A DNA stretch of 31,071 nucleotides from Cytophagales bacterium (GCA_038218385.1 JBBRKB010000001.1:1-31071), one strand, 5' to 3'. Counted from the first letter of the stretch, positions 1 through 27,129 are shown. Program-made: numbers and translations. The notes: a model not told the origin generated them from the sequence alone.

Positions 1-845
1 CCAGTTGGCAGTATGGCAATTCCTATAACTTTGGCCCTGCTGCCGAGGAGGGTTTGCAAAAAAGCCTGATTGAGGAGATAGGTATTTTCCCTGCAAGTAC
101 TTCCAAAATAGAAAACGCAATATCAACGGGCATCTATAACCTTAACGATTTTAATCGTGATGCCCGCGGACTTGTGGCCATAGAATATCTCATTTTCAAT
201 TTGAATGATGATAATGCAACAGTTGTAAATTCATTCCAGTCGCAAAACAGAAAAAAATATTTAATCGATCTGATCGCAAATATAAAATCACGAACAGACG
301 CGGTAGCTTCTGCGTGGAATGGTGGTTACAAAAATGAATTCATTAATAATGATGGAACAGACGCGGGTTCAAGCACCTCTCACCTGTATAATGAATTTGT
401 ACGAAGCTATGAATTCATTAAAACTTTTAAGATCGGATTGCCACTTGGCAAACTCTCCGGACAAACACAGCCTGAGCCTACCAAGGTTGAAGCATACTAC
501 AGCGGCAAGTCAATAAAAATGTTTAAGACCCATTTCAAATCCATTGAAGACATTTGGTATGGACGCAAAACAGATGGCACTGATGGAATTGGATTCAAGG
601 AATATCTGGAATCAGTTGAAGGCGGTTCCGCTTTGGTGGCAGCTACCGAGGCACAGCTTGCTTCCATTAATATTGCACTTAATGCCGTTTCAGAAACACC
701 AAGGTTTTCTGATCAGCTTCTCACATCACCATTACCAATTGATGCACTCCATATTGAACTCCAAAAGAACACAAGATATTTTAAAAGTGATATGTCATCA
801 TTGCTAGGAATTGCCATTACATTCAGCAGCGGAGACGGAGATTAA
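1..845 (+). CDS. Imelysin-family (IrpA/EfeO-like, peptidase M75 fold) protein, 5' end outside the window
   Basis: The frame is open from position 3 (SWQYGNSYNFGPAAEEGLQK...), so the TTG at 54 is not the true start. The WQ...FGP, FPA...KIE, GLVAIEYLIF, GKLSG and GDGD C-terminal motifs fit imelysin-like proteins. It lies in an operon with a TonB-dependent receptor. Confidence 0.8.
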   Translation, partial: SWQYGNSYNFGPAAEEGLQKSLIEEIGIFPASTSKIENAISTGIYNLNDFNRDARGLVAIEYLIFNLNDDNATVVNSFQSQNRKKYLIDLIANIKSRTDAVASAWNGGYKNEFINNDGTDAGSSTSHLYNEFVRSYEFIKTFKIGLPLGKLSGQTQPEPTKVEAYYSGKSIKMFKTHFKSIEDIWYGRKTDGTDGIGFKEYLESVEGGSALVAATEAQLASINIALNAVSETPRFSDQLLTSPLPIDALHIELQKNTRYFKSDMSSLLGIAITFSSGDGD

Positions 846-854
846 ATAAGCGCT

Positions 855-2231
855 GTGAACAAAATCGATTTTCATCTTAATAGATCTGTAGCTATTGAAC
901 CGTTGGTTACCTTTCGCATCGTCTTTGGTGCGATGATGGTATTCGGTACTGTTCGCTTCATGGCATTGGGATGGATCGATGATCATTACCTCAAGCCAAT
1001 TTTTCATTTTAAATATTTCGGTTTTGAGTGGGTGGATGTTCTACCCGCGTTCTGGATGTATACTTTGCATTTCGTGATGATCGTGGCTGCGATAGGTGTA
1101 ATGTTTGGTTTTTTCTACCGCCTTTGTGCCATTTTACTTTTCGTTATATTCACCTATACCGAACTGATTGATCTAACCTATTATCTCAATCATTATTATT
1201 TCGTCAGCATTGCCTGCGCCATAATGATCATCGTTCCGGCAAACCGTTATTTTTCTTTGGATGTATTACGAAAACCGGAGTTGGTTTCTAAAACGGTTCC
1301 TGCCTGGACAATCCTTCTGTTCAAATTCCAGCTGGTGATAGTGTATACCTATGCAGGTCTGGCGAAGATGAATTATGAGTGGCTAATTAACGCAATGCCA
1401 TTAAAGATCTGGCTGCCCGCCAATGATAAATTACCGCTCATAGGTTGGATACTTGCATTGCCTTTCATGCCTTATGTGTTTAGCTGGATCGGAATGATGT
1501 ATGATTCAACAATCATATTCTGGCTGTCAAATAAGAAAACAAGATTGTGGGCTTATGTGTTAGTCATACTTTTTCACATCCTTACGGGAATGATGTTTCA
1601 GATCGGAGTTTTTCCGCTGGTGATGATCGGCGCTACGCTTATTTTCTTTTCAGAAGAATGGCACAAAAGACTTATTACTTATTTGCGTTTGATTTTCCAG
1701 AAACTATTTGGCCGTGCAGACGAACCTGTGATGCAACACAGTATAGAATCATTTAACGCTGAGTCATTAAAGCTTTACACTCATCCGGCGATAAAATATG
1801 TGCTAGCCGTTTATATAGCTTTTCAAATTCTTTTCCCGTTACGCTATGTATTGTATCCCGGCAATCTGTTTTGGGGAGAGGAGGGTTACCGCTTTTCATG
1901 GAGGGTAATGTTAATGGAAAAGGCAGGCACCGCTACTTTTTATGTAAGAGATACGAATACCAACAGGGAAGGCATGGTAGTAAATAGTGAATTTTTAAAC
2001 CCACATCAGGAAAAGCAAATGGCCATGCAACCTGATATGATCTTACAGTTCGCGCACTTTTTAAAGAACTTTTATAAAGAACATGGTGTGCATGATCCGG
2101 AGGTACGAGCCGCAGTGTATGTCACCTTAAATGCCAGGCCTAGTGAACTGCTCATTGATCCCAACGTCAATCTGGTAAGCTTACAAGATGATTGGAAACC
2201 TAAAGACTGGATTTTTCCCTATCAAGAATGA
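855..2231 (+). CDS. HTTM-domain / vitamin K-dependent gamma-carboxylase-like membrane protein
   Basis: Multi-TM protein of 458 aa with FRIVFG, YLNHYY, YTYAGLAKMNYEWL, GYRFSWRVML and QPDMILQFAHFL motifs. GTG start 9 nt after the imelysin stop. Confidence 0.88.
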   Translation: MNKIDFHLNRSVAIEPLVTFRIVFGAMMVFGTVRFMALGWIDDHYLKPIFHFKYFGFEWVDVLPAFWMYTLHFVMIVAAIGVMFGFFYRLCAILLFVIFTYTELIDLTYYLNHYYFVSIACAIMIIVPANRYFSLDVLRKPELVSKTVPAWTILLFKFQLVIVYTYAGLAKMNYEWLINAMPLKIWLPANDKLPLIGWILALPFMPYVFSWIGMMYDSTIIFWLSNKKTRLWAYVLVILFHILTGMMFQIGVFPLVMIGATLIFFSEEWHKRLITYLRLIFQKLFGRADEPVMQHSIESFNAESLKLYTHPAIKYVLAVYIAFQILFPLRYVLYPGNLFWGEEGYRFSWRVMLMEKAGTATFYVRDTNTNREGMVVNSEFLNPHQEKQMAMQPDMILQFAHFLKNFYKEHGVHDPEVRAAVYVTLNARPSELLIDPNVNLVSLQDDWKPKDWIFPYQE

Positions 2232-4654
2232 ATGTACTTAAAACGATATTTATTTTTTTTCTCATGCTGCATTGCATTGTTGTTTTCAGTCAGCGCGCAA
2301 TGATTAAAGGTGTTGTTAACGATGACAAAGGAATGCCAATTCCTATGGCTACGGTTGCCTTGAAGAATACTACCTATGTAACTGAAACTTCTGAAAAAGG
2401 TGAGTATGAGTTAAAAGGAATCCCGGAAGGAAATTATACCATCGTGGCTTTATCTTTAGATAGAGCATTGACCCAACAGGAAATAATTGTTGATGAGAAT
2501 ATTGTGATTATCAATTTTACATTGCGTGAAGCAAGTAAAGTTTTGGATGAAATTGTAGTGGAAGCTACTGAAGAGAAGACACTCGGAATTTCACGACTGA
2601 ATGCAATTGATAATTTTGGTGTATATGAAGGAAAGAAAACCGAGGTTATAGTGCTTCGGGATATTACAGCAAACACCGCAACCAATAACGCGCGCCAGAT
2701 ATATTCAAAAATTACTGGCTTAAATATTTGGGGGAGTGATGGCGCAGGCATACAACTGGGAATAGGTGGAAGAGGACTGAGCCCAAACAGGACTTCTAAT
2801 TTCAATACACGCCAAAATGGTTACGACATAAGCGCAGATGCTTTAGGCTATCCGGAAAGTTATTACACGCCTCCCGCTGAGGCGTTAGAAAAAATTGAGA
2901 TCATTCGCGGAGCGGCTTCTTTGCAATATGGAACACAGTTTGGAGGTCTTCTAAATTTCAAATTAAAAAAGGGACCATCAACGAAGAAAGTTGAATTGAC
3001 CTCAAGACAAACAATAGGTTCATGGGGATTTTATGGCACCTTCAATAGTCTGGGCGGTACGGTAGCAAAAGGAAAACTGAATTATTACACTTGTTATAAT
3101 TATAAAACGGGTAACGGCTATCGCAAAAATTCTGAGTTTGATTATCACAATGCTTATGCCTCTGTCAATTATCAAATTACCCCTGATTTACTAGTGAATG
3201 TTGACGTTACAAAAATGTATTACCTGGCACATCAGCCGGGTGGTTTGACAGACCGGTTATTTGATCAGGATCCGAAACAATCTTTAAGAAACAGGAATTG
3301 GTTTAAAGTAGACTGGAATCTTTTCGCGGTCAATCTGACCTATAAGTTTTCTAGCGCAACGCAGATTAACATCCGTAATTTCGGATTAGTTGCCAGCCGT
3401 CAATCGCTTGGAAATCTTGAGCGGATTACTGTTGCTGATTTTGGCGAAGACCGCACACTGATCGGTGGTAAGTTTCAGAATTTCGGTCATGAAACAAGAC
3501 TGGTGCATCGTTACAATCTTTTCAAAAAGCAACATGCATTTGTTGCTGGGTTCAGAATATACAGAGGCACTTCCTATGCAAAACAAGGGAACGGAAATAA
3601 TGGAACTGGCCCTGACTTCTATTTTCTACATCCCGAAGATCTGGAAAATTCTGATTATAAATTTCCGAATGAAAACTATGCTGGTTTTATTGAAAATATT
3701 TTTCATCTCAGTAGGAAGCTTAGCATTACCCCGGGATTGAGGTTTGAAAGTATTAGAACTTATTCAACGGGCTATTACAAACAAGTAGTGTATGATCAGG
3801 CTGGCAATGTTGTGGTAAGTAATACCGTGCCCGAAGAGCAATCACGAAAAAGAAGTTTTTTATTTGGTGGCATAGGCGCTAGCTATAAGCACTCTGAAAA
3901 CACAGAAATGTATGCTAACATTTCGCAGAATTATCGAGCCATAAATTTTACTGATCTGAGGATCGCGAATCCGAACTTTGTTGTCGATCCAAATATTCAG
4001 GATGAAAAAGGATACACAGCGGATTTGGGTATCAGGGGAAACATAAAGGATGTACTCAAGTATGAAGCGACTTTATTTTATCTGGCTTACAAGGGAAGGA
4101 TTGGCCAAGTGTTGAGAACCGATACAATTTTATATAATGATTATCGTTTTCGTGGAAATATTTCTGATGCCCGAAATATAGGAATTGAGTCGTTTGGCGA
4201 ATTAGTCATTAGTAAATTATTGAACCCATCCTATGAATGGACATGGTCGTTATTCGTTAATGCAGCAATTATTGATGCAAAATATGTTAATTCACAAGAT
4301 GCTTCCATTAGAAACAAGAAAGTTGAAATGGTGCCTCCTTTGATGTTAAGAACAGGATCGACATTTCGATATAAAAGTTTTTCGTCAACTCTACAGTTCT
4401 CTCACATAGCAAAGCATTTTTCAGACGCCTCCAATGCGAAGCGGACCGCCACAGCGGTTGAAGGACTTATCCCTTCCTACAACGTAGTAGATCTTTCCTT
4501 ACGTTATCAGTGGAAAATTCTCACCCTTGAAGCAAGTTGCAATAATCTGTTGAATGAAAAATATTTTACCAGACGCGCTGAAAGCTATCCGGGCCCGGGA
4601 ATTATTCCTTCTGATGGAAGAGGCTTTTATGTAACACTTCAGTTAAAATTGTAA
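2228..4654 (+). CDS. TonB-dependent receptor (FecA-like) with N-terminal carboxypeptidase-regulatory-like domain
   Basis: Signal peptide (VVFS|Q); IKGVVNDDKGMPIPMATV N-domain; plug motifs RQNGYDI and IEIIRGAASLQYG; beta-barrel end CNNLLNEKY...GRGFYVTLQLKL. ATGA overlap with the HTTM gene. Confidence 0.92.
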   Translation: MNVLKTIFIFFLMLHCIVVFSQRAMIKGVVNDDKGMPIPMATVALKNTTYVTETSEKGEYELKGIPEGNYTIVALSLDRALTQQEIIVDENIVIINFTLREASKVLDEIVVEATEEKTLGISRLNAIDNFGVYEGKKTEVIVLRDITANTATNNARQIYSKITGLNIWGSDGAGIQLGIGGRGLSPNRTSNFNTRQNGYDISADALGYPESYYTPPAEALEKIEIIRGAASLQYGTQFGGLLNFKLKKGPSTKKVELTSRQTIGSWGFYGTFNSLGGTVAKGKLNYYTCYNYKTGNGYRKNSEFDYHNAYASVNYQITPDLLVNVDVTKMYYLAHQPGGLTDRLFDQDPKQSLRNRNWFKVDWNLFAVNLTYKFSSATQINIRNFGLVASRQSLGNLERITVADFGEDRTLIGGKFQNFGHETRLVHRYNLFKKQHAFVAGFRIYRGTSYAKQGNGNNGTGPDFYFLHPEDLENSDYKFPNENYAGFIENIFHLSRKLSITPGLRFESIRTYSTGYYKQVVYDQAGNVVVSNTVPEEQSRKRSFLFGGIGASYKHSENTEMYANISQNYRAINFTDLRIANPNFVVDPNIQDEKGYTADLGIRGNIKDVLKYEATLFYLAYKGRIGQVLRTDTILYNDYRFRGNISDARNIGIESFGELVISKLLNPSYEWTWSLFVNAAIIDAKYVNSQDASIRNKKVEMVPPLMLRTGSTFRYKSFSSTLQFSHIAKHFSDASNAKRTATAVEGLIPSYNVVDLSLRYQWKILTLEASCNNLLNEKYFTRRAESYPGPGIIPSDGRGFYVTLQLKL

Positions 4655-4673: not shown

Positions 4674-5300
4674 TCAAACCAAATACTCACGCACTTTCAA
4701 CCTTATAAAATCCTGAACACCTTTCCATGTTTGCTTTTTTAAGCTAATAGGATCTTCACTTTCATCAGCATCGGCAAAGTATGTGATGGCCTGGGGTACC
4801 GTTACAAATAAATTTTGACTGCTGTACTTTTCTTTATGAAATTTTATAAAATCAGAAACCGGATAATGGTTTAACAATTCGGCTACATCCCAGAAGTCTT
4901 TCTTTCTTCCCCTACCCAAAATGGCCTGAACCTTCATGGCAACAATGTCTTCAGTTGAAAACATTCGGATTCCTTCCATGTTCTTCTCTTGTCTGATAAG
5001 CGGATGTGGATGTTTCACCAAATCAACTTTTACATCATCGAGAAAACAAAATATACCAAAATGTGGAGGCTTATCTTCCATGATGAATTTATCTCCAAAT
5101 TCGCTCCTTAATGTATCCGTAATCATCTCATTCTTGAAGGGCTTATTCGAAAATAAATCCAGGTCAATTGATTTTCTGTGGCCATACAATAGGGACAACG
5201 CAGTGCCGCCAACTAAAGAAAATTCCTTTAGCTCTGGCATGGCCATAAGTTTTTCTAGTACGGAAAAAGTGTTGGGTTCGACTGTCTCAATGTGTAGCAT
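4674..5300 (-). CDS. AbiEii/AbiGii-family nucleotidyltransferase (type IV TA toxin-like)
   Basis: LVGGTALSLLYGHRKSIDLDLF nucleotidyltransferase motif and K-x-x-A...R...KDFWD C-terminal motif. Confidence 0.9.
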   Translation of the reverse strand: MLHIETVEPNTFSVLEKLMAMPELKEFSLVGGTALSLLYGHRKSIDLDLFSNKPFKNEMITDTLRSEFGDKFIMEDKPPHFGIFCFLDDVKVDLVKHPHPLIRQEKNMEGIRMFSTEDIVAMKVQAILGRGRKKDFWDVAELLNHYPVSDFIKFHKEKYSSQNLFVTVPQAITYFADADESEDPISLKKQTWKGVQDFIRLKVREYLV

Positions 5301-5557
5301 CTGAAGTCTTTTAAAGGTCTGTCAATAACGGCACTTGCTAAATACATTCTGGTCTCGGGTAAAAATTTAGCATTCAGCAAAACTTCCCTTACTTTCTCAT
5401 CACCGTAATACCTTCGGCAATTACGAATATCATCTACATCACCGCGTTCAAATACCCGTTCGATGACAAAGTTCGCCTTTGCATCGTAGTCAATATTTTC
5501 AAAGACCACATCCCAGAAAATACGTTTATGAAAAATTGGTTTTGGCTTATCTGACAT
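5255..5557 (-). CDS. DUF6922-like protein, putative antitoxin partner of the AbiEii gene
   Basis: IFWDV...FVIERVFERGD...YYG pattern, 100 aa. It sits directly upstream of the AbiEii gene and overlaps it by 46 nt. Confidence 0.8.
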   Translation of the reverse strand: MSDKPKPIFHKRIFWDVVFENIDYDAKANFVIERVFERGDVDDIRNCRRYYGDEKVREVLLNAKFLPETRMYLASAVIDRPLKDFRCYTLRQSNPTLFPY

Positions 5558-7008: not shown

Positions 7009-7767
7009 TTACTTCGAAACGTTTTGGTTCCACTCGTAAAGTTTCTCTGAAACTTCAATTAAAAACTCCGGTGTTTTCTCAAGGGCATTGCCAATCACGA
7101 TCATATCAGCTCCCGCTTCAAGTGCGGCTATGGCTTTGCGTGAAGTGTTTAATCCTCCACCAACTATAAGGGGAACTTTCACTGCTTTACGAACAGCACT
7201 GATCATCTTCTGACTAATGGCCACATCTGCACCACTGCCAGCGTCCATGTAAATAGATTGCAAGCCTAGCATCTCACCAGCCATGGCGGTACAAGCAGCA
7301 AGCGAATACTTATCGTCTGGAATAGGAGTAGTGTTACTAATGTAAGCAACTGATGTGGTGCGACCCGAATTAATCAACATGTATCCCGTTGGGATAACTT
7401 CAAGTCGTGTATTTCTAATGATGGGTGCAGCGATTACATGTTGACCTATCAACAATTCAGGATTTCTTCCTGAGATCAAAGACAAGAACAATAACGCATC
7501 TGCACTGGAATCAATTTGAATGGAATTGCCAGGGAACAACACAACTGGTATAGAAACATTTTCCTTAATGTATTTGACAACCTCAGAAAGATTTGTGGTG
7601 GTCACCAAACTTCCGCCTACAAAAAAGAAGTCAACACAATTTTCGTTCGCCAAATTAATCAGCTGATGAAGCTTGGGGACATCATCAATCTTATCCGGAT
7701 CAACCAATACGGCAATCGATTTTTTCCCCGCCTGTCTTCGCTGTTGTAAGGTTTCAAGAATGGTCAT
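7009..7767 (-). CDS. Geranylgeranylglyceryl/heptaprenylglyceryl phosphate synthase (group II, PcrB/GGGPS family)
   Basis: VLVDPDK, FFVGGS, LFPG, SLISGRNPELLIGQH, IPTGYMLI, YMDAGSGA and VGGG TIM-barrel motifs; 252 aa. Confidence 0.93.
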   Translation of the reverse strand: MTILETLQQRRQAGKKSIAVLVDPDKIDDVPKLHQLINLANENCVDFFFVGGSLVTTTNLSEVVKYIKENVSIPVVLFPGNSIQIDSSADALLFLSLISGRNPELLIGQHVIAAPIIRNTRLEVIPTGYMLINSGRTTSVAYISNTTPIPDDKYSLAACTAMAGEMLGLQSIYMDAGSGADVAISQKMISAVRKAVKVPLIVGGGLNTSRKAIAALEAGADMIVIGNALEKTPEFLIEVSEKLYEWNQNVSK

Positions 7768-8158
7768 CCGTTCGCGTTTGCGTTGCTTGTTGTTCGAGGT
7801 ACTCCATCAATTTTTCTTTTGCCAAACTTAAAAGAAATGTTGTTGCCTGGCTTATCACCATGGCACCAATACCCGCGAAGGCTTCTGAAAAAAGTGATAC
7901 GTGTTGTTCATCAGACGGTTCTTCCGAAACATACGATGCTTTTGTATTTCTCTTTTTGTTCTTTCCTTTTGATTTCTTTCCAAGTTGCGTTACCAATAGA
8001 TACGTTACCACTAACGCACCGCCAATGATGGCCGTGTTGGTTAAGATTTTCTCTGTTCTTTTTGAGAACAGCTCGACCTCATCCTCAAGGGCAGCCCGCT
8101 GAGCAGCTGATCGCTTGAGTAATTTTCCTTTCGGGTCTTCTGATTCCAGTAGTTCCAT
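7754..8158 (-). CDS. Conserved hypothetical membrane-anchored protein (YqjK-like position in the operon)
   Basis: 134 aa with an N-terminal helical region, one hydrophobic segment (TAIIGGALVVTYLLV) and a basic tail. It abuts the upstream gene (1 nt gap) and overlaps the GGGPS gene by 14 nt. Confidence 0.7.
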   Translation of the reverse strand: MELLESEDPKGKLLKRSAAQRAALEDEVELFSKRTEKILTNTAIIGGALVVTYLLVTQLGKKSKGKNKKRNTKASYVSEEPSDEQHVSLFSEAFAGIGAMVISQATTFLLSLAKEKLMEYLEQQATQTRTDDHS

Positions 8159-8159
8159 G

Positions 8160-8516
8160 CTACTTTGGTTTTGACTTCGTTAATTCTGTTAATTGTTTTT
8201 CTATATATGCCGTAATGTCTCCTTTAAAAAGGAATACCCCTAACCCTATCAGTACATATAAAAACGATACTATTAAAAAACCACTGACATCGCCAACCCA
8301 ATGGCCTAAATAAAAGGCGAGGGCAAAGCTTGAAAGCATAAGCACAAAGAAAAGCATAAAGGCAAGTAACACCCCCACCACAGTTTTAGACAAAATTTTT
8401 GCTACGTCTTGCTTAACCTCCATCTTAAGAAGTTCAGCACGCGTCTCAATGTAACCCGTCAGGTTAGAGATCAATCCTTCGATCTTAAGAAATTTTACGA
8501 TTAGGTCTTTAAACAT
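8160..8516 (-). CDS. 'Phage holin family' (YqjE/holin-X-like) two-TM membrane protein
   Basis: GYIETRAELLKMEV pattern followed by two TM helices; 118 aa. Confidence 0.75.
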   Translation of the reverse strand: MFKDLIVKFLKIEGLISNLTGYIETRAELLKMEVKQDVAKILSKTVVGVLLAFMLFFVLMLSSFALAFYLGHWVGDVSGFLIVSFLYVLIGLGVFLFKGDITAYIEKQLTELTKSKPK

Positions 8517-18205: not shown

Positions 18206-18225
18206 TTGTGCATTCGATTGCACAA
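18206..18225. promoter_or_regulatory. LacI-type operator-like palindrome TTGTGCATTCGATTGCACAA
   Basis: 20-bp palindrome with a central CG and 9 of 10 pairs matching. It ends 3 nt before the ATG of the GMC gene. Confidence 0.6.
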
Positions 18226-18228
18226 AAC

Positions 18229-19923
18229 ATGAACCTGACTATAGATGCCGCCAAAAAAATGACCTACGATGCTATCGTTGTGGGCTCCGGCATAAGTGGC
18301 GGATGGGCGGCTAAAGAACTGTGTGAGAAGGGTTTGAAAGTTTTAATGCTGGAACGTGGACGCAATGTTGAGCATCCCAACTACCTAACCACTACCTGGG
18401 ATCCCTGGCAATTTGAACACCGTGGGCAACTTACTATGGAGGATAGGAAGAAATTTCATGTTCAAACCCGACACTATTCCATCAGTGAAGAAAATAAGCA
18501 CTTCTATATTAATGACCTTGAAAATCCCTACGAGGAAACCAAACGTTACGATTGGATAAGGGCAGATGTACTCGGTGGTCGATCCCTTCTTTGGGCACGC
18601 CAATGTTATCGCTTGAGTGATTTGGATTTTGAGGCTAACCTAAAAGATGGTATCGCTATCGATTGGCCCATTCGCTATAAAGAAATTGAACCGTGGTATA
18701 ATTATGTAGAACCCTTTGTTGGCATCTCGGGCCAGGCTGAAAACATACCCCACCTTCCTGACAGCAAATTCCTTCCGCCGATGGAGTACAACTGTGTGGA
18801 AAAGGATTTCAAAAGTAAGCTTGAGAAAAATATTCCGGGAAGAAAAGTCACCATAGGCCGGGTGGCAAACCTCACGCAACCTGTAAAAGGCAGAGGTCAA
18901 TGTCAATATAGAAATTTATGTTATCGCGGTTGTCCTTATGGAGCGTACTTTAGTACAAATGCAAGCACCATTCCCGCAGCCTACGCTACCAACAACCTTA
19001 CGGTGTTATCAAATTCGTTGGTGAATAAGGTAATCTATGATGAGAAAAAGAAAAGGGCAACAGGCGTTGAAGTAATCAACACCGAGACCAACGAAGTGAC
19101 CGAATATTTTTCACGCATTCTTTTCTTAAATGCTTCTACTTTAGGTACCACATTTATTCTTCTCAACTCAACATCCTCACGATTTCAAAATGGATTAGGA
19201 AATGAAAGTGACCAGGTGGGAAGAAATTTGATGGATCATCATAAAGGAAGCAGTGCTTCTGCAGTTGTAGAAGGCTTTGAAGATAGCTATTACTTCGGAA
19301 GAAGACCAAACGGAATTTATATTCCCCGGTTCAGAAACCTTCACGAAAAGCAAACGAATTTTATTCGAGGATTTGGTTTTCAGGGAAGTGCTGGGCGAAG
19401 TGGCTGGAGCGCACATCTTAATACAACTTCTTTAGGTAGTGATTTAAAAGAAAAGGCGACAGAGCCAGGTTCCTGGAGCATGGGGCTTGGAGGCTTTGGC
19501 GAGTGTCTTCCGTATGCCGATAACAGAGCAACGTTGGATGGATCCAAGACCGACAAATGGAGCCGTCCTGTTCTTAATGTGGATTGTGAGTTTAGAGAAA
19601 ATGAAAAAGCCATGAGCGTTGACATTGCAGACTCTGCAGTAGAAATGCTGGAGGCAGTCGGCTATAAAAATGTAATAAGAAACCATTCCATGTCCTTTCC
19701 GGGAAACGCCAATCATGAAATGGGTACCGCACGAATGGGAAAGGATCCCAAGACTTCTGTGCTGAACAAGTTTAACCAAATGCATGAGGTGCCCAATGTA
19801 TTTATTACGGATGGTTCCTTCATGGTCTCATCCTCTTGTGTTAATCCTTCCCTCACGTACATGGCGATGACGGCTCGCGCATGCGATTATGCGGTGAACG
19901 AAATGAAAAAACATAATCTCTAA
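18229..19923 (+). CDS. GMC-family FAD oxidoreductase (glucoside 3-dehydrogenase/LacA-like large subunit)
   Basis: YDAIVVGSGISGG FAD motif, LGGRSLLWAR, Cys cluster CQYRNLCYRGC, NHEMGTARMG and DGSF...VNPSLT. The ATG at 18229 is preferred over the GTG at 18208. Confidence 0.92.
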   Translation: MNLTIDAAKKMTYDAIVVGSGISGGWAAKELCEKGLKVLMLERGRNVEHPNYLTTTWDPWQFEHRGQLTMEDRKKFHVQTRHYSISEENKHFYINDLENPYEETKRYDWIRADVLGGRSLLWARQCYRLSDLDFEANLKDGIAIDWPIRYKEIEPWYNYVEPFVGISGQAENIPHLPDSKFLPPMEYNCVEKDFKSKLEKNIPGRKVTIGRVANLTQPVKGRGQCQYRNLCYRGCPYGAYFSTNASTIPAAYATNNLTVLSNSLVNKVIYDEKKKRATGVEVINTETNEVTEYFSRILFLNASTLGTTFILLNSTSSRFQNGLGNESDQVGRNLMDHHKGSSASAVVEGFEDSYYFGRRPNGIYIPRFRNLHEKQTNFIRGFGFQGSAGRSGWSAHLNTTSLGSDLKEKATEPGSWSMGLGGFGECLPYADNRATLDGSKTDKWSRPVLNVDCEFRENEKAMSVDIADSAVEMLEAVGYKNVIRNHSMSFPGNANHEMGTARMGKDPKTSVLNKFNQMHEVPNVFITDGSFMVSSSCVNPSLTYMAMTARACDYAVNEMKKHNL

Positions 19924-19946
19924 AATTTAAATACCAAACCAACGAT

Positions 19947-21299
19947 ATGAAAAAATACATTTTACTTTTTTTACTTCTGCCTACACTCGCCTTTGCTCAA
20001 AAAAAATCAACCGGGTGGCGCGAACTCTTCAATGGAAAAGATTTGAAAGGTTGGAAGCAACTGAATGGCCAAGCGAAATATGAATTCAAAAATGGAGAAC
20101 TGATTGGTACAACCGTGGCAGGTACACCCAATTCATTTTTGGTTACCGAAGAAACATTTGGTGATTTCATCCTTGAGCTTGAATTTAAAAATGATGGTAA
20201 AACAAATTCAGGCATTCAATTTCGCAGCGAGAGCACGCCAGATTATATGAATGGAAGAGTGCATGGATATCAAATGGAAATTGATCCATCAGAACGTCAA
20301 TGGACAGGTGGGATTTATGATGAAGCAAGAAGGCAATGGCTTTACCCACTTGAGTATAATCCGGAAGGAAAAAAAGCGTTTAACCCTGAAGGTTGGAACA
20401 CCGTTCGCATTGAGTGCATCGGCAACATCATGCGCACATGGATCAATGGCAAACCAGTGGCCCATCTGGTAGACAACATGACTCCCAAAGGTTTTATCGC
20501 TCTGCAAGTACACTCCATCAAAGACAAAACAGACGAAGGCAAGCAGGTGCGTTTTCGAAATGTACGAATCAAAACAACAGACCTTACACCGTCACCGTGG
20601 GATACCATTTTTGTGATGAACCTTGTGCCCAATGAATTGACCGCACAGGAAAGTAAAAATGGGGTGAAACTTTTGTGGGATGGCAAAACAAAAACCGGAT
20701 GGAGAGGAGCTTACAAAACTGAATTCCCGGCAAAGGGTTGGGAAATTGAAAACGGAGAGTTGTCTGTTTTAAAATCAACTGGAGCGGAGTCTGAAAATGG
20801 TGGCGACATCATCACAACAGAAGAGTTCGCTGCCTTTGATCTCCAGTTTGAATTCAAACTAACCGAAGGCGCAAACAGCGGTGTAAAATATTTTGTAACG
20901 GAGAATGAAGGCAACAAAGGTTCTGCCATTGGCCCTGAGTATCAAATTTTGGATGATGAAAAACATCCCGATGCAAAATTGGGAGCGGTTGGCAACCGTA
21001 CGCTAGCCTCGCTTTATGATCTCATTCCATCTATAAAAAATCCCAGAGGACTTCATAAAATTGGTGAGTGGAATAATGGCCGGGTAATTGTTTATCCTGA
21101 CAACCGTGTTGAACATTGGCTGAATGGTAACAAGGTTGTTGAATATCAAAGAGGCACACCTATTTATTATGCACTTGTGGCACGAAGCAAGTATGCCAAG
21201 TGGGAAGGTTTTGGTATGGCTGAAAAAGGCCACATCCTCATTCAAGATCATGGCGACAATGTTTCCTTTAGAAGTATTAAAATCAAAACATTAAAATAA
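19947..21299 (+). CDS. Exported tandem DUF1080 (3-keto-disaccharide hydrolase family) protein
   Basis: Sec signal (LAFA|Q). Two repeats: LFNGKDLKGW...NSGIQFRS...GFIALQVH...FRNVRIK and LWDGKTKTGW...NSGVKYF...GHILIQDHG...FRSIKIK. Confidence 0.9.
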   Translation: MKKYILLFLLLPTLAFAQKKSTGWRELFNGKDLKGWKQLNGQAKYEFKNGELIGTTVAGTPNSFLVTEETFGDFILELEFKNDGKTNSGIQFRSESTPDYMNGRVHGYQMEIDPSERQWTGGIYDEARRQWLYPLEYNPEGKKAFNPEGWNTVRIECIGNIMRTWINGKPVAHLVDNMTPKGFIALQVHSIKDKTDEGKQVRFRNVRIKTTDLTPSPWDTIFVMNLVPNELTAQESKNGVKLLWDGKTKTGWRGAYKTEFPAKGWEIENGELSVLKSTGAESENGGDIITTEEFAAFDLQFEFKLTEGANSGVKYFVTENEGNKGSAIGPEYQILDDEKHPDAKLGAVGNRTLASLYDLIPSIKNPRGLHKIGEWNNGRVIVYPDNRVEHWLNGNKVVEYQRGTPIYYALVARSKYAKWEGFGMAEKGHILIQDHGDNVSFRSIKIKTLK

Positions 21300-21347
21300 A
21301 CGAAATCAATTTATCCAATCAATACGTACATAAACACACATACTAAA

Positions 21348-22694
21348 ATGAAAAAATCAAGAAGGGATTTTATTAAGACATCCAGTGCCGCTACCATGGG
21401 CGCGCTTGCCTTTAGTGCCTCAAGTTATGGGCGCATCATAGGTTCCAACGACAGGGTCAATGTAGGCGTGGTCGGATTTTCAGACCGTTTTAAAAGTTCA
21501 TTGCTTCCGAGTTTTTTGGGTCATCACAAAGAACTTAACTACGACATGATTGCTGTGTCTGACATTTGGAAATATAAAAGAGAAACAGGTCAGTCCGTAC
21601 TGAAAGAGAAACTCGGTCATGACATTAAAGCATGTAGGAACAACGATGAGTTGTATGCCATGAAAGACATTGATGCCGTGATCATCAGCACTGCCGATTT
21701 CCAACATGCATTGCATTGTGCCGAAGCTGTTAACAACGGTAAAGACGCGTATTGTGAAAAGCCCTTTGCAGAAACCATGGAAGATGCGCGCATTGCATTG
21801 AAAGCTGTTCGCGACAATAAAAAAATTGTACAGATTGGATCACAACGGAGAAGCGGAGCGAACTATCATGCTGCAAATGAATTTGTGAAGTCTGGAAAAT
21901 TCGGACCTATCACTATGGTAGAATTAACATGGAATGTCAACCAGCCCGGCCGTTGGAGAAGACCCGACATGGTAGCGAAGATGCGAGAGCAAGACACCGA
22001 TTGGACACGCTTTTTGATGAACCGCCCCAAGGAAGCATTCGATGCGCGCAAACATCTTGAGTTTAGATTATTCTGGCCGTATTCATCAGGTCTTCCCGGC
22101 CAATGGATGTGCCATCAAATTGATACAGTACATTGGTTCAGTGGCTTGAGCCATCCACGTAGCGCCGTTGCCAATGGGGGAATTTACGTTTGGAAAGACG
22201 GACGTAGAAATTGGGATACCTTAACAGCTGTGTTTGACTATGGGCCACAAGATGATTTGACGAAAGGATTTCAGGTAACCTTCGCATCGCGTATGCACAA
22301 TGGTGATGAAAAACCTGCCGAAATTTATTATTCAAATGGTGGTGAAATGAACTTGATCACCGATAAGGTTTCGCCCACAGGTGGCCTTTCAGAGCGCCAT
22401 GCAAAAGCGATGGGAATGCAGGCCAACCTACTCCCCAATGTTGACCTTAGTGCCAATGCAGAGAAAGTTGTAGCATCTGCAGACACAGGAGCTGATAACT
22501 TAACCTCAAGTCATATGCGTAACTGGATGGAGTGTGTAAAGAGCCGCAAGGAACCTAATGCACCGGTTGAAGCAGGTTACTCGCATGCTATTGCAAGCAT
22601 CATGTCTACTGCCGCCGCTCATACCGGCTTGAAAGCAACCTTTGATGAAAAAACGCAGGAAGTAATGGTCGGTGGAAAAGCATTTAAATATTGA
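21348..22694 (+). CDS. Tat-exported Gfo/Idh/MocA-family NAD(P)-dependent oxidoreductase
   Basis: SRRDFIK twin-arginine signal, DAVIISTADFQH, YCEKP, VQIGSQRRS and QWMCHQID motifs. Confidence 0.92.
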   Translation: MKKSRRDFIKTSSAATMGALAFSASSYGRIIGSNDRVNVGVVGFSDRFKSSLLPSFLGHHKELNYDMIAVSDIWKYKRETGQSVLKEKLGHDIKACRNNDELYAMKDIDAVIISTADFQHALHCAEAVNNGKDAYCEKPFAETMEDARIALKAVRDNKKIVQIGSQRRSGANYHAANEFVKSGKFGPITMVELTWNVNQPGRWRRPDMVAKMREQDTDWTRFLMNRPKEAFDARKHLEFRLFWPYSSGLPGQWMCHQIDTVHWFSGLSHPRSAVANGGIYVWKDGRRNWDTLTAVFDYGPQDDLTKGFQVTFASRMHNGDEKPAEIYYSNGGEMNLITDKVSPTGGLSERHAKAMGMQANLLPNVDLSANAEKVVASADTGADNLTSSHMRNWMECVKSRKEPNAPVEAGYSHAIASIMSTAAAHTGLKATFDEKTQEVMVGGKAFKY

Positions 22695-22704
22695 TTACTA
22701 AAGA

Positions 22705-23745
22705 ATGAGAAGATTTATAACTATGTGGGTAGCTGTACTAACGGCTACCTGCTCATTTGCTCAGAAACAAGAAGGGTTTAGTCTTAAAGAAGATGCCGCC
22801 AAAAAACAAGTGGATGTGCTTTACAATGGCAAGCTCCTTACAGCGTATTGCCATTATGATTCCGTGATGAAGCCTGTATTGTTCCCGATCAATACGTTAT
22901 CTGGGATCACGATAACACGTGGATATCCATTGGCACCGCGCGCTGGAGAACGTGTTGACCACCCTCATCATATTGGTCTTTGGTTAAACTATGAATACGT
23001 TAATGGCCTCGACTTTTGGAATAATTCAACCGCCATTCCGTATGACAAGCGTTCACATTATGGAACCATCTATCACGACAGGATAGTTAAAAGCAATGCA
23101 ACGAAGAAGGATGCAACGCTGGAAGTTTCGGCACAATGGAAAAACCATGCTAACATGCCGTTGCTGCTTGAGACTACACAGTATCATTTTACTGTAGCTG
23201 ATGGAAGCTTCATCATTGACAGGACAACAACCCTTCGATCACTAAATGAAGATGTTTTTTTAAAAGATGTTAAAGACGGGTTCCTTGGATTGCGTGTCAC
23301 AAAAGAACTTGAAATGCCATCGAATGAATCAGTAAAATATGTTGATGATAAAGGGAATGTAACCGAAGTGCCTGCCGTGAACAACGCCAATGTTACGGGT
23401 GACTATCTCAACAGTGAAGGAATCAAAGGTGATGCCGTGTGGGCAACACGCGGTGTGTGGGCAACTTTGTTTGGAAAGAAAGATGGCAAAGATGTTTCCG
23501 TAACCATCATTGATCATCCGAGCAATATGGGTTACCCTACCTATTGGCATGCACGCGGCTATGGTTTGTTTGCCGCCAATCCAATTGGACAAGCAGCCTT
23601 TAGCAAAGGAAAGGACACCCTCAATTTAATCATTAAAAAAGGTGAGTCTGTAACGTTTCGTTTTCGCGTAGTTATTCATGAAGGTGCAAACCTTACCCCT
23701 GAACAGATCAATCAATTAGCAAAAGAGTTTGGCAAGACGAAGTAG
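22705..23745 (+). CDS. Exported DUF6807 / 'PmoA family' beta-sandwich protein, function unknown
   Basis: Sec signal (CSFA|Q); KPVLFPI, DHPHHIGLW, DHPSN...YPTYWHARGYGLFAANP motifs. Confidence 0.82.
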   Translation: MRRFITMWVAVLTATCSFAQKQEGFSLKEDAAKKQVDVLYNGKLLTAYCHYDSVMKPVLFPINTLSGITITRGYPLAPRAGERVDHPHHIGLWLNYEYVNGLDFWNNSTAIPYDKRSHYGTIYHDRIVKSNATKKDATLEVSAQWKNHANMPLLLETTQYHFTVADGSFIIDRTTTLRSLNEDVFLKDVKDGFLGLRVTKELEMPSNESVKYVDDKGNVTEVPAVNNANVTGDYLNSEGIKGDAVWATRGVWATLFGKKDGKDVSVTIIDHPSNMGYPTYWHARGYGLFAANPIGQAAFSKGKDTLNLIIKKGESVTFRFRVVIHEGANLTPEQINQLAKEFGKTK

Positions 23746-26700: not shown

Positions 26701-27129
26701 GGCCAACTTCTCAGCCAATGCCCCTGGGTAGTACACATTATAATTCGGGGCACCTTTAAAATTGGATGACCAAAATGAGGGGCCGGCGGATCCCAATACA
26801 CCTGTTGGCAAATTTGTCCAAACCGCTGCAACACGAATGGGTCTTGGTGATGAAATTAAACTCTCCCAAATGGATACGGCATGATCGAATGCCGCTTGGG
26901 CTTCGGGTGTAAAACCGATGTATTCTACTATGAATGTCGAAGTCTTAATCCTGCCACTACTTTTTCTATTCCTAAATGCGGCCGGTTCGTGATTGTGTGT
27001 ATGGTTGCCTTCAATATAGTCAGCGTAACAAACTATGGGAAGTTTGGTGCCTGTGAGCTTAACAATGTTTTGCGCGGAACAGAACGTTGTGAGGATTGAA
27101 AAACAAAAGAAAGGTATTTTTGAATTCAT
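23752..27129 (-). CDS. T9SS-secreted multidomain zinc metalloprotease-like protein
   Basis: Signal peptide (FCSA|Q); HELGHGLGF zinc motif; repeated Ig-like and beta-sandwich modules; T9SS type A CTD (MVYPNPV...GMYLVRL...KKVVV). Confidence 0.88.
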   Translation of the reverse strand: MNSKIPFFCFSILTTFCSAQNIVKLTGTKLPIVCYADYIEGNHTHNHEPAAFRNRKSSGRIKTSTFIVEYIGFTPEAQAAFDHAVSIWESLISSPRPIRVAAVWTNLPTGVLGSAGPSFWSSNFKGAPNYNVYYPGALAEKLADQELNGSNEYEIVTQFNSSTNWYFQTTGTPAVGQHDFITVVLHELGHGLGFTSTFEMNNAMGAYGEFTNGIPFPFDLMIENGSTQNLYQNFNSPSTEMGNQLVSGNLFIRTTFGNTLAKLYAPNVFNDGSSIAHLDASAFPQGSPNSLMRPFINTREVNHDPGLIVKNVFASMGWVFTTYIDHDHLKDRENVSLPIEFKAVIKTDGSDGYTFANNNVVLTYSVNGSAAVEAIMMATGTPDEYAFTLPAPNAPKIYSYTIKITDSFGRVVKSPGEIYQPTQLVPNKGPQNTTYSFSVGADNVAPLIVHTPKTFLSYLDNDFSIDAEIIESSGLAEVSVEYSINNGSSQVAPLELIGSSNDVFTGSTTYQYRKIISFGAGQLQDGDEIKYKIMAKDNAAAKNVAIDPVTDYYRIPVIGLAPTQVYYLNNFNTPSADFIGNNFSVTTPSGFSNPAIHSVHPYPEAGANNSLDFTYQLRVPISLSKISEISFDEIVLVEPGEPGSPFGSEDFYDYVIVEGSNDGGATWLPLQDGYDSRDYAPWQARYENATFSDGDPLLFRRRDINILHTFNVGDEVVFRFRLHSDPFGNGWGWAIDNVKIQVDDAAPTILHNHIDYVMENTMPVSIPVKLHDERKLQKVIFDHKINGQLQPSQTVDVTGTDAIVEFALDFANLKSGDSVAYRFQVLDSAGNVSLMPANLPYFNVEVIDFNTVVDSYANDFTISATDFVGNFFTLTKPDRFSNNAIHTIHPYPIGFGFENETEFTFTLKKKINIREENPYVQFDEIAIVEDHPAEAIFGTPAFKDYVVVEASKDEGLSWLALEDGYDAKRENAWLNVLPQSSVVSSAKYKRHTINLLDNGSFSDGDNIVLRFRLFSDASIHAWGWAIDKLHVQDVVTSTEDDLINQIMVYPNPVHENDLTIDYGNTMPKSIAIQNGLGQTMTQVNVDGNVLGNKIKIPLGNFPNGMYLVRLNFATQSIIKKVVVAR

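What the first reader, a model, noticed from the sequence alone, without database searches (positions are those of the whole stretch)
1..4654. Imelysin-carboxylase homologue-TonB receptor operon: a candidate metal-uptake system with a post-translational modification step
Seen: three co-directional genes with a 9-nt gap (845/855) and an ATGA overlap (2228-2231), which suggests translational coupling of the HTTM gene to the receptor. Established: imelysin/IrpA/EfeO-like proteins and FecA-like TonB receptors act in iron uptake, and Gla residues chelate metal ions. Inference: the HTTM protein may carboxylate Glu residues of the imelysin, the receptor or an upstream protein to make metal-binding sites. 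Alternatively it may act as a quinone-linked redox or permease partner replacing the usual di-haem peroxidase or FTR1 component. I recall similar gene groupings in other Bacteroidota, but not a mechanism.
Basis: partly seen in the sequence, partly recalled or inferred. Interest (0 to 1): 0.7.

Follow-up and report, generated by a model that had tools for sequence, protein, structure and literature searches.

The report
Iron-starvation operon with vitamin-K-carboxylase homologue
These genes are part of a widespread, probably iron-starvation-controlled outer-membrane uptake operon of aerobic Bacteroidota; its inner-membrane component is a relative of the human vitamin-K-dependent carboxylase with an intact active site, always found together with a lipoprotein that ends in the same acidic tail, which gives this enzyme family a testable protein partner in bacteria.

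Summary
Three co-directional genes encode an imelysin-like protein (3-845, cut by the contig start), an HTTM/VKGC-lumenal protein (855-2231) and a TonB-dependent receptor (2228-4654). The 9-nt gap and the ATGA overlap are both present.

A fourth gene, a DUF4856 lipoprotein, lies upstream on another contig behind a Fur-box-like palindrome. The order DUF4856-imelysin-HTTM-receptor recurs in 53 of 67 assessable loci. A Riemerella paper reports all four genes induced by iron restriction.

The HTTM protein keeps the deprotonation and CO2-pocket residues of human GGCX. It lacks the second propeptide clamp and the C-terminal domain.

The linked imelysins have lost the motif histidine and end invariably in ...SGDGD. 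In 200 genomes this tail type occurs only where HTTM occurs (38 of 38). A complex model docks an orthologous pair (0.76; controls 0.00).

Best reading: an iron-uptake operon in which a menaquinol- and O2-dependent enzyme acts on the imelysin, possibly carboxylating its tail. The chemistry is not shown. The candidate target is Asp rather than Glu, and HTTM does not simply replace the di-haem peroxidase.

This scan has reported the same operon, tail and docking on other genomes.

The parts
3..845 (+). 3' part (280 codons) of an imelysin-like lipoprotein gene of the His-less GxxxxE type. The 5' end is cut off by the contig start.
   Evidence: Pfam PF09375 scores 85.7 bits. It is 58% identical to the full-length L001 orthologue over residues 90-370. 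The motif reads GLVAIEYLIF. The orthologue model has the imelysin fold, TM 0.70 to 4ECG, 3PF0 and 7XRX.
828..842 (+). Codons for the C-terminal tail S-G-D-G-D, followed by TAA at 843-845.
   Evidence: 67 of 68 HTTM-linked imelysins end in DGD. In alignment A2, D370 is invariant and D368 and G369 are present in 65 of 66. A classical imelysin in the same locus (L027, gene B) lacks the tail.
855..2231 (+). [quoted passage not shown]
   Evidence: Pfam PF05090 scores 256.9 bits and PF22777 188.3 bits. phmmer against human GGCX gives E 7e-42, with query 8-454 matching human 55-503. Active-site codons are H113 (1191-1193), K171 (1365-1367), D217 (1503-1505) and F253 (1611-1613), all invariant in 54 diverse relatives.
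2228..2231 (+). ATGA start/stop overlap between the HTTM gene and the receptor gene.
   Evidence: Read directly from the sequence. The same 4-nt overlap is possible in 28 of 71 related loci.
2228..4654 (+). TonB-dependent outer-membrane receptor (808 aa) with an N-terminal CarboxypepD_reg domain, plug and barrel. Its ligand is unknown.
   Evidence: Pfam PF13715, PF07715 and PF00593. It scores below the cut-off of every NCBIfam receptor model. The closest solved chains, YncD and PqqU, reach only E 1e-8.

Best explanation
The window holds the last three genes of a four-gene iron-starvation operon: DUF4856 lipoprotein, tail-bearing imelysin lipoprotein, HTTM enzyme and TonB-dependent receptor.

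Shown here:
- The gene order is conserved across Bacteroidota and neighbouring phyla.
- A palindrome matching the Riemerella Fur box precedes the first gene.
- The HTTM protein keeps the GGCX residues for quinol deprotonation and CO2 trapping.
- The organism has menB, so it can make the naphthoquinol cofactor.
- The HTTM gene and the DGD-tailed imelysin gene occur together or not at all.

Inferred mechanism:
1. Under low iron, Fur releases the operon.
2. Both lipoproteins are exported and lipidated.
3. At the periplasmic face of the inner membrane, the imelysin docks on the lumenal-type domain and cap loop of HTTM.
4. HTTM uses menaquinol and O2, and probably CO2, to modify the imelysin. The most likely reaction is carboxylation of its invariant C-terminal Asp-Gly-Asp tail into a stronger metal chelator.
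5. The lipoproteins then act with the receptor in capturing and importing an iron species.

My odds: iron-regulated uptake operon about 0.85; HTTM and imelysin as a direct functional pair about 0.75; carboxylation as the chemistry about 0.35.
For: Operon and linkage:
- Two metagenomic or MAG loci (L001, L002) show the order DUF4856-imelysin-HTTM-receptor.
- 53 of 67 assessable species loci show the same order.
- The own genome carries the DUF4856 5' half at the end of contig C436.

Iron control:
- The 19-mer ATTTGGATTAATTCTAAAC lies 69 nt upstream of the own DUF4856 start. It matches the Riemerella Fur box at 15 of 19 positions, and only 23 such sites occur in 3.79 Mb.
- The motif with 4 or fewer mismatches is found upstream in 43 of 57 loci, against 4 of 1140 shuffles and 2 of 62 downstream controls.
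- RAYM_09779-09794 (receptor, 'vitamin K-dependent gamma-carboxylase', imelysin lipoprotein, hypothetical protein) are all up under iron restriction. Fur bound four other promoters carrying this box in EMSA (PMC5609570).

Enzyme:
- The equivalents of human H160, K218, D263, F299, W390 and W399 are invariant in 54 relatives of 32-48% identity.
- The roles of these residues are taken from PMC12647623 and the giant-virus VKOR paper.
- The segment equivalent to human 374-418 is present.
- menB scores above its cut-off in the own genome.
- In the named control genomes, Bacteroides thetaiotaomicron matches the imelysin and menB families but not HTTM. From my own knowledge it is an anaerobe, which fits an O2-dependent enzyme.

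Partner:
- The tail ...KSDMSSLLGIxIT[FY]xSGDGD is almost invariant.
- In 21 relatives, the same 10 genomes have both genes.
- In 200 high-quality Bacteroidota genomes, all 38 with a tail-type imelysin have HTTM, and none of 159 HTTM-negative genomes has one.
- 4 of 5 genomes with an unlinked HTTM gene keep the tail-type imelysin elsewhere; two of them have it next to DUF4856.
- A 34%-identical HTTM (L094) lies next to an imelysin ending ...TFSDNDGDG, with no receptor gene.
- Complex model of the L001 pair: score 0.76 with best control 0.00. This mark was reached by 58 of 80 solved complexes and 2 of 110 mismatched pairs. The runs share at least 89% of contacts and the partner pLDDT is at least 87.
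- The interface includes HTTM residue 113 (next to the N114/H115 pair), the loop 183-194 (approximately the human cap) and 350-354 (the human R406 region). On the imelysin side it includes 351-362 and tail residue 369.

Precedent: the bacterial homologue MloH carboxylates an aspartyl residue (cited in PMC12647623 and in the DUF preprint).
Against: - No modified residue has been observed in any of these proteins.
- The enzyme ends at about human residue 503, so it lacks clamp B and the C-terminal domain that form half of the propeptide cleft.
- The Glu-stacking Y395 equivalent is not conserved in the family. R406 is Lys and H440 is Gln.
- VKOR, needed to recycle an epoxide in animals, was not found in the own genome (85% complete) or in 3 of 5 closed HTTM-positive genomes.
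- The Leptospira homologue was reported to epoxidise vitamin K without carboxylating Glu peptides (Rishavy et al. 2005; from my own knowledge, not read here).
- The acidic tail could simply be a metal ligand of the imelysin, since [D/E]150 and E253 are also conserved.
- Both lipoproteins carry Asp/Glu-rich stretches after the lipid-anchored Cys. These resemble the Bacteroidota surface-export signal, so a stable inner-membrane complex is doubtful; a contact would have to occur in transit.
- The Fur box in this genome has 4 mismatches and has not been tested.
- That contigs C436 and C1 abut is inferred.
Confidence: 0.45

Rival explanations
1. HTTM is a quinol-driven redox partner, not a protein-modifying enzyme. 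It uses menaquinol and O2 to change the redox state of iron held by the imelysin (a reductase, ferroxidase or oxidant generator, analogous to EfeB or the di-haem peroxidase). The DGD tail is a metal ligand that presents the metal at the HTTM active site.
For: Imelysin operons normally contain a redox enzyme (Xu et al. 2011, PMC3143127), whereas the common four-gene form has none other than HTTM. The imelysin keeps [D/E]150 and E253 besides the tail. Some loci insert a YceI-type domain gene between the imelysin and HTTM genes (L016); from my own knowledge YceI proteins bind isoprenoid chains. VKOR is often not found. The docking model fits this reading as well.
Against: The CO2-stacking Phe (human F299) and His (H160) are invariant, which a pure redox role would not require. 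Loci L027, L038 and L094 carry a di-haem oxidoreductase as well as HTTM, so HTTM is not its substitute. No HTTM-family member is known to act on a metal.
Confidence: 0.25
2. The operon imports something other than iron, for example another metal, haem or a quinone-type cofactor, and iron regulation is indirect.
For: The receptor matches no defined siderophore, haem or FecA model above its cut-off. Its nearest solved relatives are YncD (no ligand is named in its PDB title) and the PQQ transporter PqqU. No inner-membrane iron permease is encoded in the operon.
Against: A Fur-type operator is conserved upstream in most loci. Induction by iron restriction is reported in Riemerella. Imelysin-family proteins are tied to iron systems. 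Di-haem oxidoreductase and haem-binding cofactor genes lie nearby in variant loci.
Confidence: 0.12
3. HTTM is catalytically idle here. It serves only as an inner-membrane anchor or conduit for the imelysin, or acts as a permease.
For: It is the only polytopic inner-membrane protein in the operon. It lacks half of the GGCX substrate-binding apparatus.
Against: Six catalytic or pocket residues are invariant over relatives down to 32% identity, which argues for retained chemistry. No transport function is known for the fold.
Confidence: 0.08

Closest known systems
Riemerella anatipestifer RAYM_09779-RAYM_09794 (Guo et al. 2017, PMC5609570)
   Same: The same four annotated products in the same order: TonB-dependent receptor, 'vitamin K-dependent gamma-carboxylase', imelysin lipoprotein and a hypothetical protein. 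All are listed as induced by iron restriction and placed in the Fur regulon. The same type of Fur box is proposed.
   Different: The genes appear only in a transcriptome table. No function, partner or mechanism was studied. EMSA was done on other promoters, not this one. I did not align those proteins with the window's.
[quoted passage not shown]
   Same: Homologous over human residues 55-503 (E 7e-42). The H160, K218, D263 and F299 equivalents are invariant. The 390-402 segment is recognisably kept: WGEEGYRFSWRVM against WTNGLYGYSWDMM.
   Different: About 250 C-terminal residues are missing (clamp B jelly-roll and C-terminal domain). N290 is Thr, R406 is Lys, H440 is Gln, and the Y395 equivalent is not conserved in the family. 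There is no propeptide-bearing Gla substrate; the candidate partner is a lipoprotein with an Asp-Gly-Asp C-terminus. VKOR is often not found.
Fur-regulated imelysin operons such as P. aeruginosa PA4370-PA4373, and EfeUOB (Xu et al. 2011, PMC3143127)
   Same: An imelysin-fold lipoprotein in an iron-regulated envelope operon. The window's imelysin is of the His-less GxxxxE type described there for IPPA/PA4372. Variant loci keep the imelysin, di-haem oxidoreductase, imelysin order in front of HTTM.
   Different: In the common form, DUF4856 stands where the first imelysin and the di-haem enzyme would be. An HTTM enzyme and a TonB-dependent receptor are added. There is no EfeU/FTR1 permease, and the imelysin carries an invariant DGD C-terminus.
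MloH, the HTTM-family carboxylase of malonomycin biosynthesis (Law et al. 2018, as cited)
   Same: A bacterial HTTM-family enzyme shown to carboxylate an aspartyl residue. It is a precedent for Asp rather than Glu as the target.
   Different: MloH acts on a carrier-bound polyketide-peptide intermediate in a biosynthetic cluster, not on a lipoprotein in an uptake operon. I made no sequence comparison with MloH here.

Membership tests
Vitamin-K-dependent carboxylase family (Pfam HTTM PF05090 + VKGC_lumenal_dom PF22777) | Both Pfam domains score above their gathering cut-offs. | tested here: met
   256.9 bits and 188.3 bits against cut-offs of 27.7.
Vitamin-K-dependent carboxylase family (Pfam HTTM PF05090 + VKGC_lumenal_dom PF22777) | Quinol-deprotonating Lys (K218) with its Asp partner (D263), and the CO2-pocket His (H160) and Phe (F299). 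| tested here: met
   K171, D217, H113 and F253 align to these residues. They are invariant in 54 relatives.
Vitamin-K-dependent carboxylase family (Pfam HTTM PF05090 + VKGC_lumenal_dom PF22777) | Glu and Gla handling residues Y395, R406 and H440. | tested here: not met
   Y345 is present in this protein, but the column is not conserved in the family. R406 aligns to K356 and H440 to Q392.
Vitamin-K-dependent carboxylase family (Pfam HTTM PF05090 + VKGC_lumenal_dom PF22777) | Two-clamp propeptide cleft and C-terminal domain. | tested here: not met
   The protein ends at the equivalent of human residue 503 of 758.
Vitamin-K-dependent carboxylase family (Pfam HTTM PF05090 + VKGC_lumenal_dom PF22777) | Quinol- and O2-dependent carboxylation activity. 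| not testable with these tools
   Needs biochemistry. The cofactor pathway gene menB is present.
Imelysin-like proteins (Peptidase_M75, PF09375) | Pfam match above the cut-off, and the two-bundle imelysin fold. | tested here: met
   85.7 bits against a cut-off of 23.5. The model of the L001 orthologue has pLDDT 92.6 and TM 0.70 to 4ECG, 0.68 to 3PF0 and 0.70 to 7XRX.
Imelysin-like proteins (Peptidase_M75, PF09375) | GxHxxE motif. | tested here: not met
   The window reads GLVAIE. In 66 linked orthologues the His position is mostly Pro, Leu or Tyr (none of the five commonest residues is His), and the acidic position is D or E in 60. This is the GxxxxE variant of the IPPA/PA4372 group.
Imelysin / di-haem peroxidase iron operons (PA4370-4373 type, EfeUOB) | An EfeB or di-haem oxidoreductase gene, or an EfeU permease gene, in the operon. 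| tested here: inconclusive
   None lies in the window or on C436, but about 0.85 kb between the contigs is unseen. Close relatives L001 and L002 have none. L027, L038 and L094 do.
TonB-dependent receptors | Plug domain plus 22-strand barrel domain. | tested here: met
   PF07715 scores 33.8 bits and PF00593 115 bits.
FecA / siderophore receptor subfamilies | Score above the NCBIfam curated cut-off. | tested here: not met
   FecA 82 bits against 1100; TIGR01783 122.9 against 223.5; haem and transferrin models are also below their cut-offs.
Fur regulon | A Fur operator in the promoter and iron-dependent expression. | tested here: inconclusive
   The own site matches 15 of 19 positions, 69 nt upstream of the first gene. 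The motif is enriched upstream of orthologous operons. Expression data exist only for Riemerella.
DUF4856 (PF16148) | Pfam match. | tested here: inconclusive
   The own 209-residue fragment gave no Pfam hit at E 0.001. It is 61% identical to the L001 protein, which carries a weak precomputed PF16148 hit; the L002 protein carries an unmarked one.

The most novel reading that the evidence does not exclude
This would be a bacterial vitamin-K-dependent protein modification system. HTTM would carboxylate the C-terminal Asp-Gly-Asp of the imelysin lipoprotein as it passes the inner membrane, much as GGCX modifies secretory proteins in the ER. That would create a beta-carboxy-aspartate-type chelator that the outer-membrane machinery uses to seize iron.
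Probability: 0.3. Interest if true: 0.9.

Novelty: new variant of a known kind. Interest (0 to 1): 0.62.

Why it matters
Outside animals, the HTTM/VKGC family has one demonstrated reaction that I know of (MloH). I know of no protein substrate in bacteria, and two literature searches here found none linking HTTM to imelysin or DUF4856.

This operon is carried by about a fifth of sampled Bacteroidota genomes (41 of 200; 30 of 109 genera). It pairs an apparently active enzyme with one specific lipoprotein that has one specific invariant tail, so the question can be answered by mass spectrometry and point mutants in a tractable, harmless flavobacterium.

It would also explain the role of the His-less imelysins, which is open since 2011. 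It may reveal an unrecognised step in iron acquisition by abundant aerobic marine and soil bacteria.

Tried and rejected
- Literature. Searches for 'HTTM' with 'imelysin' and for 'DUF4856' found no paper. 'HTTM domain' with 'TonB-dependent' found only a preprint on a different HTTM partner, DUF5819.
- DUF4856 as a hidden imelysin. The profile-profile comparison matched only the signal peptides. Its confident all-helical model (pLDDT 95) had no Foldseek PDB match at E 0.001 or better. The wide VIA-align search gave at best Z 6.7 to generic helical bundles. The fold therefore remains unassigned, which does not show that it is new.
- VKOR as an obligatory companion. It was not found in the own genome and was found in only 2 of 5 closed HTTM-positive genomes.
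- HTTM as a replacement for the di-haem oxidoreductase. Rejected because both occur together in L027, L038 and L094.
- FecA identity of the receptor. Rejected on NCBIfam scores.
- Validating the Fur motif within this genome. The two best sites lie upstream of a multihaem cytochrome c gene and hemA. This is suggestive but too few sites to count.
- Start codon of the HTTM gene. No in-frame ATG precedes the conserved N-terminal segment, so GTG 855 was kept.
- Docking geometry. I could not inspect the coordinates of the complex model, so whether the tail actually enters the active site is not known.
Full report
**1. What is in the window**

The window is one whole contig (C1) of a 511-contig, 85%-complete assembly. 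Its first 4.65 kb carry three co-directional ORFs:
- 3-845, open at the 5' end.
- 855-2231, starting with GTG.
- 2228-4654, starting with ATG.

The imelysin stop (TAA 843-845) is 9 nt from the GTG. ATGA at 2228-2231 overlaps the HTTM stop with the receptor start.

Pfam assigns Peptidase_M75 (imelysin) to the first ORF. It assigns HTTM plus the VKGC lumenal domain to the second, and CarboxypepD_reg, Plug and the TonB-dependent receptor barrel to the third.

The next gene, an AbiEii toxin homologue at 4674-5300, is convergent, so the operon ends with the receptor.

**2. The missing upstream part**

Two long metagenomic or MAG contigs carrying close HTTM homologues show a four-gene unit: a DUF4856 lipoprotein, imelysin, HTTM and the receptor.

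A tblastn search of the own genome with these proteins found the first 209 residues of the DUF4856 orthologue running off the end of contig C436. About 0.85 kb would be missing between C436 and C1. That the two contigs abut is an inference.

The DUF4856 gene starts at C436:2775 with a lipoprotein signal (…LVFTAC). It is preceded by a 270-nt intergenic region next to a divergent amino-acid permease gene.

**3. Is the linkage conserved?**

A pattern-plus-tblastn scan of one genome per species returned 80 loci. They come from Saprospiraceae, Chitinophagales, Flavobacteriales and Cytophagales. They also include Kapaibacteria, Balneolaceae, Chloroherpetonaceae and one Verrucomicrobiota MAG.

Of 67 loci with enough flank on both sides, 59 have imelysin-HTTM-receptor on one strand, and 53 also have a detectable DUF4856. 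The receptor start lies within -53 to +29 nt of the HTTM stop in 69 of 71 loci, and a 4-nt overlap is possible in 28.

Variants are informative:
- L027 and L038 have imelysin, imelysin, di-haem oxidoreductase (PF06537), HTTM and the receptor.
- L016 inserts a YceI-domain gene between imelysin and HTTM; L011, L012, L015 and L033 show a gap of similar size that I did not examine.
- Five loci have HTTM alone.

**4. Iron control**

Guo et al. 2017 list RAYM_09779 to 09794 of Riemerella anatipestifer among genes raised by iron restriction and assigned to Fur. These are a TonB-dependent receptor, a 'vitamin K-dependent gamma-carboxylase', an imelysin lipoprotein and a hypothetical protein. The authors derive a Fur box, ATTTAGAATTATTCTAAAT, and show Fur binding to four other promoters that contain it (PMC5609570).

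In the own genome, ATTTGGATTAATTCTAAAC (15 of 19 matches) lies 69 nt before the DUF4856 start. Only 23 sites this good exist in 3.79 Mb. The two best sites precede a multihaem cytochrome c gene and hemA.

Across orthologous operons, a site with 4 or fewer mismatches lies within 250 nt upstream of the first gene in 43 of 57 cases. The controls gave 4 of 1140 shuffles and 2 of 62 regions downstream of the receptor. Iron regulation through Fur is thus well supported for the operon family and likely, though untested, here.

**5. The HTTM protein**

It aligns with human GGCX over residues 55-503 (E 7e-42). I took residue roles from the recent structure papers and compared them with an alignment of 54 relatives sharing 32-48% identity.

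| Human GGCX | Role | Window protein | Conservation in relatives |
|---|---|---|---|
| H160 | CO2 pocket | H113 | invariant |
| K218 | deprotonates the quinol | K171 | invariant |
| D263 | partner of K218 | D217 | invariant |
| F299 | stacks on CO2 | F253 | invariant |
| W390 | in the conserved 374-418 segment | W340 | invariant |
| W399 | in the conserved 374-418 segment | W349 | invariant |
| N290 | H-bonds the quinol | T244 | conserved as Thr |
| Y395 | stacks on the Glu substrate | Y345 | column not conserved |
| R406 | binds Gla | K356 | nearly invariant Lys |
| H440 | binds Gla | Q392 | conserved as Gln |

The segment equivalent to human 374-418, which is absent from the giant-virus epoxidases, is present here.

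The protein stops where the human clamp B and C-terminal domain would begin, so it has at most half of the propeptide cleft. The family is large: 4627 clusters at 50% identity with E up to 0.001.

The own genome has menB above its cut-off, so a naphthoquinol cofactor is available. VKOR was not found in it and was found in only 2 of 5 closed HTTM-positive genomes.

HTTM occurs in 41 of 200 sampled high-quality Bacteroidota genomes and is missing from whole families, one at 0 of 39. Among the named control genomes, B. thetaiotaomicron matches the imelysin and menB families but not HTTM. From my own knowledge it is an anaerobe, which would fit an O2-requiring enzyme.

**6. The imelysin partner**

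The linked imelysins are lipoproteins; the lipobox Cys is invariant. A model of the L001 orthologue has the imelysin fold, with pLDDT 92.6 and TM about 0.7 to 4ECG, 3PF0 and 7XRX.

They have lost the His of the GxHxxE motif but keep the acidic residue (D or E in 60 of 66) and E253. This places them with the GxxxxE group of Xu et al. 2011.

Their most conserved stretch is the C-terminus, …K-S-D-M-S-S-L-L-G-I-x-I-T-[FY]-x-S-G-D-G-D. Of 68 sequences, 67 end in DGD. The classical imelysin encoded in the same L027 locus lacks this tail. In the model the last 12 residues are coil, and the mean pLDDT of the last ten is 79 against 97 for the blocks before.

**7. Phyletic coupling**

- Among 21 relatives, the ten genomes with HTTM are exactly the ten with this imelysin.
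- In the 200-genome phylum sample, 38 genomes have an imelysin that matches through the tail, and all 38 have HTTM.
- The three other HTTM-positive genomes carry only divergent HTTM copies, with E between 1e-85 and 1e-131.
- None of the 159 HTTM-negative genomes has a tail-type imelysin.
- In four of the five genomes whose HTTM gene stands alone, a tail-type imelysin is encoded elsewhere. In two of these it sits next to DUF4856.
- A 34%-identical HTTM from another lineage sits beside a di-haem oxidoreductase and an imelysin ending …TFSDNDGDG, with no receptor gene.

Related genomes are not independent. Even so, the patchy distribution across genera means that the pair has been gained or lost together many times.

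**8. Complex prediction**

I folded the HTTM and mature imelysin of locus L001, which are 65% and 58% identical to the window's proteins, each with its alignment.
- The score was 0.76 (three runs: 0.76, 0.78, 0.76), with the best of three controls at 0.00.
- This mark was reached by 58 of 80 solved complexes and 2 of 110 mismatched pairs.
- The runs share at least 89% of their contacts, and the partner pLDDT is at least 87.
- Because my own alignments were used, those counts hold only roughly. The model supports binding but does not show it.

The interface on HTTM comprises three elements:
- residue 113, next to the catalytic N114/H115;
- the loop 183-194, approximately the human cap over the vitamin K site;
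- residues 350-425 of the periplasmic domain, including the R406-equivalent region.

On the imelysin it includes the conserved 351-362 segment and tail residue 369. I could not inspect coordinates, so entry of the tail into the active site is an inference.

**9. The other two components**

DUF4856 is a lipoprotein with invariant C20, P32, G179, Y203, E289 and F293. D172, E252 and H285 are nearly invariant. Its model is confident and all-helical. It has no detectable relation to imelysin and no clear solved structural relative.

Both lipoproteins are rich in Asp and Glu at positions +2 to +4 after the lipid-anchored Cys. This resembles the Bacteroidota surface-export signal, which I recall from Lauber et al. 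2016 and did not check here. If so, the imelysin would meet HTTM in transit, as secretory proteins meet GGCX in the ER.

The receptor falls below the cut-off of every NCBIfam receptor model. It resembles solved YncD and PqqU only weakly. Its ligand is unknown.

**10. Reading and rivals**

My best reading has three layers with separate odds:
- Iron-regulated uptake operon: about 0.85.
- HTTM and the tail-type imelysin as a direct functional pair: about 0.75.
- Carboxylation of the tail as the chemistry: about 0.35. The retained CO2 pocket and the MloH precedent for aspartyl carboxylation favour it.

The main rival is that HTTM is a quinol-driven redox partner and the tail is a metal ligand. Less likely rivals are a non-iron cargo and a non-catalytic anchor role.

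The Glu-carboxylation detail and the 'replaces the peroxidase' alternative are not.

**11. Novelty**

The genes are annotated in public databases, and one transcriptome paper lists the cluster. I found no study of its mechanism.

This scan has reported the same operon on at least 27 other genomes, including the acidic tail and the predicted docking. My results were obtained independently before reading those notes and agree with them.

I class it as a new variant of a known kind: a Fur-regulated imelysin and TonB-receptor uptake system with an added vitamin-K-carboxylase-type enzyme.

Noticed in passing
window 4674-5300 (-), with a 100-aa ORF at 5255-5557 (-): An AbiEii nucleotidyltransferase toxin homologue (PF08843) lies convergent to the receptor gene, 19 nt after its stop. 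The small overlapping upstream ORF could be the AbiEi antitoxin; I did not check it.
   Followed up: partly
window 18208-23745 (+): Four co-directional genes: a GMC oxidoreductase, a 3-keto-disaccharide hydrolase with two domains, a GFO/IDH/MocA oxidoreductase and DUF6807. This looks like a 3-keto-glycoside sugar-oxidation cluster.
   Followed up: no
window 23752-27129 (-): A 1125-aa protein with a T9SS C-terminal sorting domain and a weak Reelin subrepeat-B match. The rest has no Pfam family.
   Followed up: no
window 27771-30080 (-): A MoxR-type AAA ATPase followed by a DUF58 protein, the usual start of a Bat/aerotolerance-like operon. The 294-aa ORF at 30158-31042 has no Pfam match.
   Followed up: no
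window 843-857: The imelysin and HTTM ORFs are in the same reading frame, separated only by TAA and three codons (ATA AGC GCT) before the GTG start. Other loci overlap or differ, so this is probably incidental.
   Followed up: partly
own genome, C10:17340 and C130:2400: The identical 19-mer ATTTAGAATCATTTTAAAT, two mismatches from the Riemerella Fur box, lies upstream of a multihaem cytochrome c gene and of hemA (glutamyl-tRNA reductase). These are candidate members of an iron or haem regulon in this organism.
   Followed up: partly
L016:6247-6954 (similar 0.7-1.1 kb gaps in L011, L012, L015, L033): In L016 a YceI-like domain gene (PF04264) is inserted between the imelysin and HTTM genes. From my own knowledge YceI proteins bind polyisoprenoids, so this may bear on quinone supply to HTTM. 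The other four loci have a gap of similar size that I did not examine.
   Followed up: partly
G159, G187, G001 and others: Several genomes carry two or three HTTM paralogues (E 1e-107 to 1e-150 against the profile) besides the operon copy. Their neighbourhoods and partners were not examined.
   Followed up: no
window 7009-8516 (-): A PcrB-family (prenylglyceryl phosphate synthase-like) gene, followed by two small ORFs. One matches the holin-X family PF07332.
   Followed up: no
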